A stretch of 14,938 nt of DNA from the UHGV virus genome UHGV-0278410. One strand, 5' to 3'. This DNA is from a virus. Of the stretch, positions 6,001 to 9,000 are shown one piece after another; within the stretch, counting starts at the first letter, position 1; the number at the start of each line of letters is the position of its first letter. A program made the position numbers.

Positions 6001-9000
6001 TGAAGTTGCGCATTATGCAAGTGTTTTATTGCGAGATAAGCAATTTGGTGGGTAATGAAAAGCCACCTTCTGGTGGCTAATTGATGTTGAGGTAGGGGGT
6101 TAATTGTGTCGCTTAAGGGTCTGTGACTGACTGATTAAGACCTTTCCAAAGACCATAAACCGGTGTTCGTTTTCGCTGGTAATTCCCCATTCGCGGTAAA
6201 TCTGATTATCAGAAATTACCAGCAGTTTATCAGGTATCATTTGCAGTCGTTTGACGTAAATTTTATCATCAAAACCAAATACATATATACCATCCCCATC
6301 AAACTGATTGATACTGATATCAACGAAGATGAGATCTCCTGGCTCAATGGTTGGACACATACTGTCCCCACGAACGTTGATAACTTTAATGTGATTTGCT
6401 GGTCGTCCACCAAACATCGATACAGCATTATCAGTTCTGTATTCAATGGCATGAATCACATCAATGACATCACCGCCCTGGATAAGGCCATTTCCCGCAC
6501 TGGCACTGACATCCAGCATTTCAATACGGAATACATCCTTCACCTGCGCAACATCCTCACTAATACTGTTTTTACATACAGTATTACTTTTGAGGTCTGA
6601 GGTAAAGAGATCAGCAATATCAACACCTAAGCTCCTGGCAATATTACTCAGGGCTTGTTCAGTGAATTGTTTCTGCTTACCTGTTTCGAGGCGCGAGATA
6701 TTCGCCGCATCCACTCCTATTGCTTCAGCGAGATCGGCGATTTTCATGTTCTTCGCCTGGCGAAGTTGTCTGACTCGATTTCCTATGTTCATGCGTTTAT
6801 TACATTTCTTTATTGCGCGTTAAGCAAATCAACTTGCGCAAAATATTTGCGTGAAATAATATGCTCATCACGCAATATGTGGAGGTTATATGCAATCACC
6901 ATTACGGAATGTGCGTAAGGCGCACGGATTTACTTTGCAGCATGTTGCTGCGGGCGTTCAGGTCAATCCAGCGACGCTGAGTCGTATTGAAAGACTGGAA
7001 CAAATTCCATCTATCGATCTTGCAGAACGTCTGGCCAATTTTTTTAAGGGTGAAATCAGCGAAATGCAGATTCTTTATCCGGCACGTTTTCAATCTAGCC
7101 AAAACCAGAATGGGTTTAAACCACAGGAACAGGAGGTAAGCCGTGGGTAAGCATCATTGGAAAGTGGAAAAACAACCTGAGTGGTACGTGAAAGCTGTCA
7201 GAAAAACTATCGCGGCATTGCCTGGGGGTTACGCTGAAGCTGCTGACTGGCTGGATGTAACAGAGAACGCTTTATTCAACCGCCTTCGTGCAGATGGCGA
7301 TCAGATTTTCCCGCTGGGATGGGCAATGGTTTTACAGCGCGCGGCTGGCACTCACTACATTGCGGATGCTGTCGCACAGTCTGCTGGTGGGGTGTTCGTA
7401 TCGCTTCCTGAAATTGAGGAAGTAGAGAACGCCGATATAAACCAGCGCCTGCTGGAAGTCATCGAACAGATCGGGAATTACTCAAAGCAGATTCGTTCGG
7501 CAATCGAAGATGGGGTCGTGGAGCCACACGAGCAGACAGCAATTAATGATGAGTTGTATCTGTCAATTTCGAAGCTCCAGGAGCATGCAGCACTGGTCTA
7601 CAAAATCTTCTGCGCTCCAGAAAAGAGTGACGCCCGCGAGTGTGCAGCTCCGGGCGTCGTGGCGTTTTGTGTCTGTGGAGAAACTAACGCATGAACAGTT
7701 TAACGGCAAATAACCGTTTGTCGCAACAGCTGGTGGTCAGTGTCGCTGAACACCTGTTGTTACGGTATGAATGCAGATTACCAAATCACCTGGCTGTAAG
7801 TAACCACAGAGAACTTTACCTGACTGTGGGGGGCGAGTTGTGCAGGAACTTAACCGCTGGTTTCGTGACGGAAGAGGGCTTTATGTCCATGTTATTCGTT
7901 GGGAGCCAGAAACACAGCGCGTTATCTATCTTCGCAAAGACTACCCGCATGAGTGCTTTAGTCCTTTGTGGAAATTCAGGCATGATTTTGTTGAGTGTGA
8001 AGGACCACCAGCACATTGATTCTGCCATTCCGGGACGTTACACTGTTCAGGCACCTTATAAAGCGGGTGCCGGGCGTGGAAACCCGGAATTCACCAAAGC
8101 GCACAACCGCGCTCTTGCGGTTTTTTTGTGTAATGAGCAGCATTACGCCCAAATTATGGTGGGGCGTGCAGGGCCAACTTCGGTTGGGCCGGGTTCTTTG
8201 GTGACCGGTATTTCCACCCCTGTACGTCTCACCACCAATAAGGTCGTGGAAAGCCTTGGTGGTGAGTTATTAAAAATCACCAAAGAGGCTGCCATCATGG
8301 CTACGATCCCAACCCTCACTCAACCTGAAATTGCCATCGTTGATGGTCAGGCTGTTACTTCATCCCTGGCTGTTGCCAACTTCTTCTCCAAACGTCATGA
8401 CGATGTACTGAAAAAGATCCGCACGCTTGAATGCTCTGCATCATTCACTGCCCGCAATTTTTCGGTGAGTGATTACACCGATTGCACAGGCCGCAAACTA
8501 CCTTGCTATCAAATAACCCGCGACGGCTTTGCGTTTCTTGCTATGGGGTTCACGGGTAAACGTGCTGCCCAGTTCAAAGAGGCATACATCAATGCCTTTA
8601 ACCAGATGGAGAAACAGCTTTCAAATCCCTCTGTACTGAGCGACGTTGCACATAACGCCAGCGTTCTCTATTCCTACATTTCATCAATTCATCAGGTCTG
8701 GCTGCAGCAGCTTTATCCTATGTTGGCAAAAGCCGAATCTCCGCTGGCTGTTAGCTTGTATGACTATATTAATGATGCTTCGGCACTGGCCTGCCTCATA
8801 AATTTGTCGCTGAACCCTTCAGAGGTAAGGGGGCGCAAATGATCCGGAATATTTTCAAACGGTTTACCAATCAGACTTTCCGTTGTCCTCGTCCTGGTCA
8901 GTGGTACACCACGCCTGCAGGGCATGTTCTACGTGTCAGCCTGGTTGACCGTGAATGTCAGAAGGTGATTTGTGAACCGCTGGGCCGTAATTACCGCATC

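What the first reader, a model, noticed from the sequence alone, without database searches (positions are those of the whole stretch)
7691..8296. Ambiguous 600-bp segment upstream of rha: N-terminal extension, hidden small gene or regulatory RNA
The rha frame is open back to an ATG at 7691 that overlaps the YdaT-like stop and has a GGAG RBS, but the Rha domain only begins at the internal ATG 8297, which has its own RBS. The intervening 200 codons contain a terminator-like hairpin (8105-8127, boxA-like CGCTCTT in the loop) and other hairpins. An alternative frame holds a 59-aa GTG-start ORF (7840-8019) with a G-rich RBS and a protein-like sequence that an ATG-based or 60-aa-threshold caller would miss. 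This mirrors the ORF-poor structured leader on the left arm.
Basis: seen in the sequence. Interest (0 to 1): 0.5.

Follow-up and report, generated by a model that had tools for sequence, protein, structure and literature searches.

The report
Hidden gene plus RNA switch, mis-annotated
The 600 bases annotated as the front of a 383-residue phage "Rha" protein really hold the remnant of a ymfM-like gene, a conserved 59-residue gene in another frame, and two known small regulatory RNAs that gate translation of the real, shorter Rha protein.

Summary
The segment is three stacked things, not one.

- **7691-7839:** a diverged N-terminal half of a YmfM-like ORF (e14 family), whose stop codon has been lost.
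- **7840-8019:** a real DUF4222 gene in another frame (Pfam 50.9 bits). Its dN/dS is 0.08, against about 1.7 in the rha frame, and it occurs on its own in other gene contexts.
- **8016-8296:** a known RNA module.
  - The C4 loops are complementary to sites upstream and downstream; the downstream b2 site overlaps the ribosome-binding site of ATG 8297.
  - The three sets of sites co-vary across 108 variants.

Rha proper starts at ATG 8297. The Pfam "Ash domain" in this segment lies exactly over the RNA genes, as it does in phage P4. It shows no codon periodicity, and AlphaFold gives no fold.

The rha frame is nevertheless kept free of stops: in 108 of 112 module variants, and across DUF4222 in 34 of 34 sequences. 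I infer that the frame is translated for translation's sake.

The components are known. The in-frame architecture and the ymfM/DUF4222 overlap appear undescribed in what I searched.

The parts
7143..7694 (+). ymfL (CII-like regulator). This is the upstream context gene; its TGA overlaps ATG 7691.
   Evidence: NCBIfam NF041471 at 170 bits and Pfam Phage_CP76. PGAP names it 'protein YmfL'.
7691..7839 (+). Diverged N-terminal half of a YmfM-like ORF, in the rha frame. It carries an 18-nt in-frame deletion relative to the common type and has lost its own stop codon.
   Evidence: BLASTP gives 47% identity to the L114 YmfM-like N-half (E 2e-11) and E 1e-9 to K-12 YmfM. In other lineages this half has dN/dS 0.29-0.37. 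In this lineage the figure is 0.74 from two sequences, and polymorphism shows no third-position excess, 6/8/3.
7840..8019 (+). DUF4222 gene: 59 aa, GTG start, G-rich SD at 7828-7833, frame -1 relative to rha.
   Evidence: Pfam PF13973 scores 50.9 bits against a cutoff of 27. dN/dS is 0.084, against 1.69 and 1.72 in the other two frames; third-position diversity is 0.476 against 0.18 and 0.12. It occurs as an independent gene in other contexts in L115, L116 and L117. The AF2 model has pLDDT 85 and is a small beta-barrel. NCBI names relatives 'DUF4222 domain-containing protein'.
7997..8296 (+). The 'Ash' reading frame (rha frame). It runs from GTG 7997 across the promoter, isrK and C4, and is kept open without evolving as a protein.
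   Evidence: The Pfam Phage_ASH match at residues 117-213 corresponds to nt 8039-8329. There is no codon periodicity (0.278/0.277/0.274) and dN/dS is 0.83-0.88 in all three frames. The frame is open in 108 of 112 variants while the other two frames carry 103 and 343 stops. GTG 7997 lies at -54 and aligns with the SD-preceded ATG of L132; in-frame ATGs cluster at -51 to -60 in other contexts. AF2 gives pLDDT 44.
8016..8044 (+). Putative isrK promoter: -35 TTGATT at 8016-8021 (which contains the DUF4222 stop TGA at 8017-8019), a 17-nt spacer, and -10 TACACT at 8039-8044, 6 nt before the isrK 5' end.
   Evidence: Coordinates. Across 108 variants the -10 positions 1, 2 and 6 are invariant. The hexamers survive in L115, where the sequence further upstream is unrelated. 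The generic promoter scan did not call it, because it matches 8 of 12 positions and the scan needs 9.
8051..8127 (+). isrK-type sRNA, the homologue of P4 SeqA and of the c4 a1/b1 element. It carries a1 at 8076-8082, b1 at 8091-8099 and an intrinsic terminator at 8105-8127.
   Evidence: Rfam RF01394 scores 67.0 bits against a gathering score of 50, over the full length 1-77. The terminator scan finds the hairpin. Every variant locus that carries the Ash-Rha ORF also has this hit.
8152..8239 (+). C4/CI-type antisense RNA. Its b' loop is at 8195-8204 and its a' element at 8211-8217. It also contains ATG 8156, the equivalent of the Gifsy-1 orf45 start, which here is in frame with rha.
   Evidence: Rfam RF01695 scores 83.6 bits against a gathering score of 45, over the full length. 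On 10 variants, 100% of 270 pair cells are paired, 8 pairs show compensatory changes, 0 of 500 shuffles reach this, and slid controls pair at about 40%.
8246..8288 (+). C4 target sites on the mRNA: a2 at 8246-8252 and b2 at 8277-8286. The b2 site overlaps the Shine-Dalgarno AGAGG at 8284-8288 that serves ATG 8297.
   Evidence: Exact complementarity in the window is shown. Across 108 variants, b'-b2 has at least 7 perfect nt in 100 and a'-a2 in 107, against 2% for non-cognate pairs; there are 49 specificity pairs.
8297..8842 (+). rha / anrP-like antirepressor core gene (181 aa).
   Evidence: TIGR02681 scores 104 bits and Pfam Phage_pRha matches. It aligns from residue 1 at 55% identity with the L160 homologue, whose upstream frame is closed.

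Best explanation
The segment is a stack of three modules in the early-right operon of a lambdoid E. coli prophage. The 383-aa 'Rha' CDS is one reading frame that happens to run through all three.

**Module 1 (7691-7839).** This is a decaying N-terminal half of a ymfM-like gene.

**Module 2 (7840-8019).** This is a separately initiated DUF4222 gene in the -1 frame.

**Module 3 (8016-8296).** This is an RNA immunity module of the P1 c4 / P4 CI / Gifsy-1 isrK kind.
- A promoter at 8016-8044 drives isrK, which carries sites a1 and b1 and ends at the terminator at 8105-8127.
- Read-through transcripts contain the C4-type RNA.
- The C4 loops a' and b' pair with a2 and b2, and b2 overlaps the ribosome-binding site of rha at ATG 8297. 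Pairing there would keep the antirepressor-like Rha untranslated.
- IsrK carries the same a and b sequences, so it can titrate C4.

**Shown here:**
- the identities of the three modules;
- the RNA structure and its covariation;
- three-way co-variation of the a and b sites;
- which frame is constrained in each part;
- stop-codon avoidance in the rha frame.

**Inferred from P1, P4 and Gifsy-1 work:**
- the direction of regulation, namely that C4 represses and IsrK relieves.

**My own inference (about 0.35):**
- The rha frame is kept open because translation itself is the function.
- Ribosomes loaded upstream, at ATG 7691 or GTG 7997, on transcripts from the early promoter would read through the isrK terminator and the C4 target.
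- Lytic transcripts would then escape termination and C4 control.
- Transcripts starting at 8051 lack those start codons and would stay under RNA control.
For: **Frames and domains**
- Pfam finds DUF4222 for the 59-aa ORF, and Ash (residues 117-213) plus Rha (223-308) in the long ORF.

**Overlap region, 26 diverse sequences**
- dN/dS is 0.084 in the DUF4222 frame, 1.69 in the rha frame and 1.72 in the third frame.
- DUF4222 occurs without the downstream isrK/C4-rha module (L116), separated from that module by an inserted toxin-antitoxin pair (L115), and behind a different upstream gene with no ymfL/ymfM-like N-part (L117).

**RNA genes**
- Rfam hits above the gathering score: C4 at 83.6 bits and isrK at 67.0 bits.
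- Both are present in all 11 variant loci with an Ash-Rha ORF and absent from 5 loci without one.
- C4 helices are 100% paired with 8 compensatory pairs; 0 of 500 shuffles reach this.

**Target sites**
- a1/a'/a2 and b1/b'/b2 co-vary across 108 variants, giving 49 specificity pairs.
- Cognate b'-b2 pairs have at least 7 perfect nt in 100 of 108, against 2% for non-cognate pairs.

**No protein signal in 8021-8296**
- Diversity by codon position is 0.278/0.277/0.274, and dN/dS is about 0.85 in every frame.
- AF2 on the Ash region gives pLDDT 44, against 85 for DUF4222.
- In P4, the old 'cI protein' CDS matches Pfam Ash and overlaps the C4 hit.

**Start of Rha**
- Rha from ATG 8297 aligns residue 1 to residue 1 with a stand-alone homologue.

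**Frame kept open**
- The rha frame is open in 108 of 112 module variants; the other two frames carry 103 and 343 stops.
- Indels in the module are multiples of 3.
- The frame is open across DUF4222 in 34 of 34 sequences, where 0.06 per sequence is expected; only T/C-ending codons occur at the four risk positions.
- Start codons cluster at -51 to -60 in other contexts.

**Literature**
Against: - I have no expression data. The promoter, the RNA ends, RNA processing and every start codon are inferred.
- The c4-a1b1 model itself scores below its gathering score (22.6 against 46.7).
- The generic promoter scan did not call the promoter.
- Heavy RNA-level constraint could hide weak amino-acid selection, so a functional Ash peptide is not excluded.
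- The open frame was part of why this window was flagged, and the variants are related. The stop-avoidance statistics are therefore not independent trials, although the sequences form 12-21 clusters at 80-85% identity.
- GTG 7997 has only a weak SD in this window.
- The evidence that the ymfM-like part is decaying here rests on few sequences.
Confidence: 0.8

Rival explanations
1. The PGAP call is right. One 383-aa multidomain protein (YmfM-like N-part, linker, Ash domain, Rha domain) is the functional product, and the RNAs and the 59-aa ORF are secondary or spurious.
For: The frame is open from 7691 in all close relatives. PGAP and the phage GenBank records annotate it this way. ATG 7691 has a GGAG SD and an ATGA overlap with ymfL. 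PHROG families cover residues 61-383.
Against: Residues 50-102 are the unconstrained shadow of DUF4222, with dN/dS 1.69, the same as the control frame. The Ash part shows no codon periodicity and no predicted fold. The modules occur separately elsewhere. A homologue starts at the equivalent of ATG 8297. In Gifsy-1, AnrP expressed alone is active (PMC4825925).
Confidence: 0.06
2. A 281-aa Ash-Rha protein starting near GTG 7997 is a genuine two-domain protein. Its Ash domain has a protein-level function, dual-coded with the RNAs.
For: The frame is open in 108 of 112 variants, with positionally conserved start codons, some preceded by a strong SD. Pfam and NCBI recognise an 'ash family'. Indels are multiples of 3.
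Against: No amino-acid constraint is detectable, even in the spacer at 8128-8151, which has no known RNA role (0.517/0.521/0.488). The a and b loops vary into 49 specificities, which changes the peptide freely. AF2 gives pLDDT 44 with a 30-sequence alignment. Gifsy-1-type variants close the frame. The P4 'cI protein' is known to act as an RNA (PMC4825925 citing Ghisotti 1992).
Confidence: 0.12
3. The openness of the rha frame is a historical accident shared by descent. Nothing upstream of ATG 8297 or ATG 8156 is translated in that frame.
For: The variants are related, and conserved RNA segments cannot acquire stops freely. One frame in three is expected to be the most open.
Against: Hypervariable stretches such as 8087-8155 carry 0 stops in this frame against 7 and 13 in the other two across 12 variants. 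In DUF4222, synonymous sites are near saturation (pS 0.69), yet CTG, GTG and GTA are never used at the four positions where they would create a stop. The frame stays open through 1.1 kb of an inserted antisense toxin-antitoxin pair in L115 (synonymous resampling gives P about 0.01) and is also open for about 1.1 kb upstream in L198, which has a similar upstream context.
Confidence: 0.08

Closest known systems
Gifsy-1 isrK-orf45-anrP locus of Salmonella (Hershko-Shalev et al. 2016, PMC4825925)
   Same: The order is the same: promoter, 77-nt IsrK with an intrinsic terminator, a processed ~80-nt RNA (STnc1160, which corresponds to the C4 hit), then an Rha-type antirepressor. The isrK model scores 67 bits. 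The window also has the AUG at about +106 that starts orf45 in Gifsy-1. As the paper notes for orf45, the nucleotide sequence is conserved but the amino-acid sequence is not.
   Different: In this window the orf45 equivalent has no stop and lies in frame with rha, and the frame continues upstream through isrK, the promoter, DUF4222 and a ymfM remnant. In Gifsy-1, orf45 ends in an AUGA overlap with anrP. The paper mentions an orf45-anrP fusion for S. dysenteriae. The Gifsy-1-like closed-frame arrangement is the minority in my sample, 3 of 112.
Phage P1/P7 immI operon (c4 RNA - icd - ant). This comparison draws on my own knowledge of Citron & Schuster 1990 and Heinrich et al. 1995.
   Same: A C4 RNA is cut from the same transcript it controls. 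Its loops a' and b' pair with a2 and b2 over a ribosome-binding site upstream of an antirepressor that carries an Rha-type domain. A second copy of the sites, a1 and b1, lies upstream. Specificity diverges through coordinated changes of the a and b sites, which is the basis of heteroimmunity. The C4 model scores 83.6 bits.
   Different: There is no separate icd gene; b2 overlaps the rha RBS directly. The module sits inside the early-right operon of a lambdoid prophage and inside a long open frame, not in its own untranslated operon leader.
Satellite phage P4 immunity region (seqA - CI RNA - seqC)
   Same: P4 gives the same two Rfam hits in the same order. The Pfam 'Ash' model matches the obsolete 'cI protein' CDS that overlaps the CI RNA.
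   Different: In P4 the transcript is untranslated and CI causes premature transcription termination (PMC4825925). The isrK-like element lies outside the ORF, and the module controls replication genes rather than an antirepressor.
e14 prophage ymfL-ymfM of E. coli K-12 (YmfM = SfiC cell-division inhibitor; Ansari et al. 2020, doi 10.1101/2020.11.19.390815)
   Same: The same ymfL end and start context (GGAGAAACTAACGCATGAAC) is present, together with a homologous N-terminal half and the same embedded DUF4222 ORF in the -1 frame.
   Different: e14 ymfM stops at +157, just before the next gene, and no isrK/C4/rha module follows it. In the window that stop position reads GTG (7997) and the N-half has diverged. 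The K-12 record does not annotate the DUF4222 ORF.

Membership tests
C4 antisense RNA (Rfam RF01695; clan CL00128) | Covariance-model score at or above the gathering score, over the full length | tested here: met
   83.6 bits against 45, model positions 1-87, window 8152-8239.
C4 antisense RNA (Rfam RF01695; clan CL00128) | A long closing stem plus two hairpins, maintained by compensatory change | tested here: met
   27 pairs are 100% paired in 10 variants, 8 pairs show double changes, and 0 of 500 shuffles reach this.
C4 antisense RNA (Rfam RF01695; clan CL00128) | Loops a' and b' complementary to downstream a2 and b2 over an RBS, and to upstream a1 and b1, changing in concert | tested here: met
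   Window sites are 8195-8204 with 8277-8286 and 8091-8099, and 8211-8217 with 8246-8252 and 8076-8082. Co-variation holds across 108 variants.
C4 antisense RNA (Rfam RF01695; clan CL00128) | The RNA is processed from the operon transcript and represses antirepressor synthesis | not testable with these tools
   Needs Northern blots, RNase P processing assays and reporter assays.
isrK Hfq-binding RNA (Rfam RF01394) | Covariance-model score at or above the gathering score, ending in an intrinsic terminator | tested here: met
   67.0 bits against 50, model positions 1-77, window 8051-8127. The terminator scan finds 8105-8122 plus a T-run.
isrK Hfq-binding RNA (Rfam RF01394) | Its own promoter placed to start transcription at the first base of the RNA | tested here: inconclusive
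   TTGATT-N17-TACACT ends 6 nt before 8051, and -10 positions 1, 2 and 6 are invariant in 108 variants. The generic scan did not call it, and no transcript data were available.
isrK Hfq-binding RNA (Rfam RF01394) | A separate small orf45 whose stop overlaps the antirepressor AUG, as in Gifsy-1 | tested here: not met
   ATG 8156 is in frame with ATG 8297 and no stop lies between them. The arrangement with a closed antirepressor frame appears in only 3 of 112 variants.
DUF4222 (Pfam PF13973) | HMM score above the curated cutoff | tested here: met
   50.9 bits against 27, residues 3-52. phrog_1343 matches 1-59 of 59.
DUF4222 (Pfam PF13973) | The frame evolves as a protein and the gene exists independently of its neighbours | tested here: met
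   dN/dS is 0.084. 8 of 9 polymorphic sites in close relatives fall at its third codon positions. Independent contexts are seen in L115, L116 and L117.
Phage_ASH (Pfam PF10554) as a protein domain | HMM score above the curated cutoff | tested here: met
   57.5 bits against 26, residues 117-213 of the 383-aa ORF.
Phage_ASH (Pfam PF10554) as a protein domain | Amino-acid-level purifying selection and a foldable domain | tested here: not met
   No codon periodicity, and dN/dS is about 0.85 in all frames. AF2 gives pLDDT 44 and pTM 0.16. The matched DNA coincides with isrK plus C4 both here and in P4.
Rha family (Pfam PF09669 / TIGR02681) | HMM score above the cutoff within the product of ATG 8297 | tested here: met
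   TIGR02681 scores 104 bits against 45.95 on the 181-aa product. Pfam scores 106.6 bits.
YmfM (e14 cell-division inhibitor; phrog_1170) | Homologous N-terminal half that starts at the ymfL stop | tested here: met
   BLASTP E 2e-11 to L114 and E 1e-9 to K-12 YmfM.
YmfM (e14 cell-division inhibitor; phrog_1170) | Own stop codon at +157/+160 of the DUF4222 ORF, giving a product of about 110-130 aa | tested here: not met
   All 31 non-D loci of the genome scan, and e14, stop there (also L121 and L127/128). In the window that position reads GTG 7997, and the frame runs on to 8842.
YmfM (e14 cell-division inhibitor; phrog_1170) | Purifying selection on the N-terminal half | tested here: inconclusive
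   dN/dS is 0.29-0.37 in types A, B and C. In the window's type it is 0.74 from two sequences, with polymorphism counts of 6/8/3. The conserved PVPG, W and C residues are lost.

The most novel reading that the evidence does not exclude
Selection keeps one reading frame free of stops without constraining its amino acids. That frame runs from the end of ymfL, out of frame across the DUF4222 gene, through a promoter, an intrinsic terminator and an antisense RNA, and into rha. Translation itself would be the function: it would let transcripts from the early promoter override the RNA immunity module that silences transcripts from the internal promoter.

Two corollaries follow. First, the Pfam 'Ash domain' is not a protein domain. 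Second, half of the K-12 'cell-division inhibitor' ymfM is the shadow of an unannotated conserved DUF4222 gene, and that gene, rather than YmfM, could cause the published filamentation phenotype.
Probability: 0.3. Interest if true: 0.75.

Novelty: new variant of a known kind. Interest (0 to 1): 0.55.

Why it matters
**Annotation.** About 10% of complete E. coli genomes (525 of 5,426) and several Stx-phage records carry this region as one 'Rha/antirepressor' CDS. That call hides a conserved small gene and two regulatory RNAs that probably set the induction threshold of the prophage.

**The 'Ash domain'.** Papers on Stx-phage regulation list it as a domain of unknown function (PMC8951638). Here it coincides with RNA genes and shows no protein signature.

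**Biology.**
- The 49 co-varying a/b specificities, and tandem arrays whose modules carry different a/b sequences, point to a large family of RNA-based immunity switches.
- The stop-free but unconstrained frame is a testable case of translation being selected for its effect on the RNA.
- The ymfM/DUF4222 overlap reopens the question of which product is the e14 SfiC division inhibitor.

Tried and rejected
- **boxA reading of the hairpin loop.** Rejected, because the loop is not conserved.
- **Hairpin stability.** The hairpin is no more stable than shuffled sequence, so folding energy alone would have dismissed a real terminator.
- **Other known RNAs.** Rfam finds nothing else in the window, including the left arm and 7691-7839.
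- **DUF4222 as a shadow of ymfM.** Rejected on dN/dS and on its independent gene contexts.
- **ymfM to DUF4222 frameshift fusion.** Rejected, because the DUF4222 frame has a stop immediately before its start codon in several loci.
- **Function of DUF4222.** The PDB sequence search found nothing. The fold search gave only generic SH3/KOW/Tudor-like barrels, all with E > 0.06, so no function could be assigned.
- **The 74-aa ORF at 8839-9063.** It is not a second DUF4222 copy; it has no Pfam hit.
- **Close relatives.** The first scan of viral contigs returned only ~97% identical copies and had little power.
- **isrK terminator covariation.** Counting failed on a fixed column register because the variants shift register.
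- **Selection on 7691-7839 in this lineage.** It stays unresolved for lack of divergent sequences.
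Full report
**Setting.** The window is the immunity and early-right region of a lambdoid E. coli prophage.
- It is 100% identical to strain E138 and to phage PhiR40_1 over the regions queried (window 7100-9100 and 7691-8330, respectively).
- 525 of 5,426 complete E. coli genomes carry at least 80% of the 2-kb region around the finding.
- PGAP and the phage GenBank records annotate 7691-8842 as one 383-aa 'Rha family' or 'antirepressor' CDS, directly after ymfL.

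**Observation.**
- The upstream gene is YmfL/CII-like, not YdaT-like.
- The 'boxA-like' hairpin loop is not conserved.

**Part 1: the hidden gene (7840-8019).** The 59-aa ORF matches Pfam DUF4222 at 50.9 bits against a cutoff of 27. I collected 32 diverse genomic loci from Citrobacter, Kluyvera, Enterobacter, Kosakonia and others, plus e14 of K-12.
- Over the ORF, dN/dS is 0.084 in its own frame, 1.69 in the rha frame and 1.72 in the third frame.
- Diversity sits at its third codon positions: 0.476 against 0.18 and 0.12.
- Among near-identical relatives, 8 of 9 variable sites are its third positions.
- It behaves as an independent module.
  - In L115 a toxin-antitoxin pair separates it from a stand-alone Ash-Rha ORF.
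  - In L116 replication genes follow it and there is no Rha.
  - In L117 a different gene precedes it.
- AF2 gives a confident small beta-barrel (pLDDT 85). It has only generic SH3/KOW-like neighbours, so the function remains unknown.

**Part 2: the first 150 bases (7691-7839).** In the rha frame these bases are homologous to the N-terminal half of YmfM-like ORFs.
- In e14 of K-12, the annotated 'cell division inhibitor YmfM' (112 aa) contains the same DUF4222 ORF in its 3' half. That ORF is not annotated in K-12.
- In three sequence types the non-overlapped N-half is under purifying selection in the ymfM frame, with dN/dS 0.29-0.37.
- The ymfM frame always stops at +157/+160 of the DUF4222 ORF in those types.
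- The window's type differs in three ways.
  - It has an 18-nt deletion.
  - It has lost the conserved PVPG, W and C residues.
  - It shows no clear coding signal in this lineage.
- At the position of the ymfM stop the window reads GTG (7997), so the frame runs on.
- The ymfM frame is stop-free across the overlap in 34 of 34 distinct sequences, although its amino acids are unconstrained there.
  - Only 0.06 per sequence is expected under background codon usage.
  - At four risk positions only T/C-ending codons are used, while synonymous sites are otherwise near saturation.
- The ymfM paper cloned 'the ORF' and does not consider the embedded gene.

**Part 3: the RNA module (8016-8296).** Rfam finds isrK at 8051-8127 (67.0 bits, gathering score 50) and the C4 antisense RNA at 8152-8239 (83.6 bits, gathering score 45), both full length.
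- Both RNAs occur in all 11 variant loci with an Ash-Rha ORF and in none of 5 loci without one.
- C4 helices are 100% paired in 10 variants with 8 compensatory pairs; 0 of 500 shuffles reach this.
- The C4 loop b' (8195-8204) is complementary to b2 (8277-8286) and to b1 (8091-8099). The b2 site overlaps the SD of ATG 8297, and b1 lies in isrK.
- The C4 element a' (8211-8217) is complementary to a2 (8246-8252) and a1 (8076-8082).
- Across 108 variants from viral contigs these sites change together into 49 specificity pairs.
  - Cognate b'-b2 pairs have at least 7 perfect nt in 100 of 108.
  - Non-cognate pairs reach that in 2%.
- A promoter-like TTGATT-N17-TACACT ends 6 nt before isrK. Its -35 hexamer contains the DUF4222 stop codon, and its -10 positions 1, 2 and 6 are invariant.
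- This is the architecture of P1 immI, of P4 seqA-CI-seqC and of Gifsy-1 isrK-orf45-anrP.
- Rha from ATG 8297 aligns residue 1 to residue 1 (55% identity) with a homologue whose upstream frame is closed.

**What the 'Ash domain' is.** The Pfam Ash match (nt 8039-8329) lies exactly over a1/b1, isrK and C4.
- In P4 the obsolete 'cI protein' CDS matches Ash and overlaps the C4 hit.
- In the window's family the region shows no codon periodicity (0.278/0.277/0.274), and none in the spacer either.
- dN/dS is about 0.85 in all three frames.
- AF2 with 30 homologues gives pLDDT 44.

**The unexpected part.** The rha frame is nevertheless open through the whole module in 108 of 112 variants.
- The other two frames carry 103 and 343 stops.
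- Indels are multiples of 3.
- In 55 of 61 upstream contexts an in-frame ATG lies within 150 nt of the isrK start. These cluster at -51 to -60 and some have strong SDs.
- The window's GTG 7997 is at -54 and aligns with one of these ATGs.
- In L115 the frame stays open through 1.1 kb that includes an antisense toxin-antitoxin insertion. Synonymous resampling gives a probability of about 0.01.

**Mechanism.**
- *Inferred from the homologous systems:*
  - Transcripts from the internal promoter are untranslated.
  - They yield IsrK and C4.
  - C4 blocks the rha RBS, and IsrK can titrate C4.
- *My own hypothesis (about 0.35):* ribosomes entering from ATG 7691 or GTG 7997 on early-promoter transcripts read through the terminator and the C4 target. 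That would exempt lytic transcripts from the switch, and would explain why the frame is kept open without amino-acid constraint.

**Verdict.** The components are known. The annotation as one protein is wrong. The in-frame architecture and the ymfM/DUF4222 overlap appear undescribed in the literature I could search.

Noticed in passing
L002 (E. coli K-12 NC_000913.3) 4002-4181, inside ymfM at 3823-4161: K-12's 'cell division inhibitor YmfM' ORF contains an unannotated, conserved DUF4222 ORF (TTG start, GGAGA SD) in its 3' half. That ORF ends 11 nt into ymfN. The published pBAD-ymfM construct would carry all but its last 6 codons.
   Followed up: partly
L115 2292-4175 (Salmonella contig AAWWQQ010000044.1): The ymfM/rha frame stays open for 628 codons, running antisense through an inserted HTH/Gp49 toxin-antitoxin pair into Ash-Rha. 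Synonymous resampling gives a probability of about 0.17 x 0.05 of this happening by chance. L198, with a similar upstream context, also has about 1.1 kb of open frame upstream of its module.
   Followed up: partly
L155 (3 copies), L132, L144, L198 (2 copies each, 656-nt spacing), L201 (869-nt spacing): These contigs carry tandem arrays of isrK-C4-small-rha modules. Each copy has a different a/b specificity, so the switches in one array differ in their a/b sequences and would not be expected to cross-pair.
   Followed up: partly
window 8839-9063: A conserved 74-aa ORF (MIRNIFKRFTN...) follows rha with an ATGA overlap and has no Pfam hit. In L201 its first 11 codons are fused in frame to the next Ash ORF of the array.
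   Followed up: partly
L252 (phage P4 NC_001609) 8168-8584, minus strand: RefSeq still carries a 'cI gene product / transcriptional repressor' CDS over the CI RNA. It is the Pfam Ash match, and no RNA feature is annotated there.
   Followed up: yes
window 8228-8238 and 8256-8266: The 3' strand of the C4 closing stem (CTCACCACCAA) is also perfectly complementary to TTGGTGGTGAG downstream. This is a possible alternative pairing in the unprocessed mRNA, like structures A and B described for Gifsy-1.
   Followed up: no
window 7804-7829: A hairpin, CCACAG-N14-CTGTGG, lies just upstream of the DUF4222 G-rich SD. Both arms are conserved in all ymfM types, where they also read as the CNH and VG peptide motifs. 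It could gate DUF4222 initiation.
   Followed up: no
L098 2501-2680 (Phytobacter sp. V91): The DUF4222 ORF has an in-frame stop at codon 7 while the overlapping ymfM frame is intact. This is either a pseudogene or a sequencing error.
   Followed up: no
L122-L126, L129 (viral contigs), match at 1501-1653: These are more distant DUF4222 homologues (about 53% identity) with no ymfM-like ORF upstream. The +1 frame is still open across the gene body and ends at the same +157 position.
   Followed up: no
one search hit list (P0086, P0131): Some 'ash family' ORFs are named 'host cell division inhibitor Icd-like protein'. This suggests that some contexts have a P1-like icd downstream of the C4 module.
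   Followed up: no
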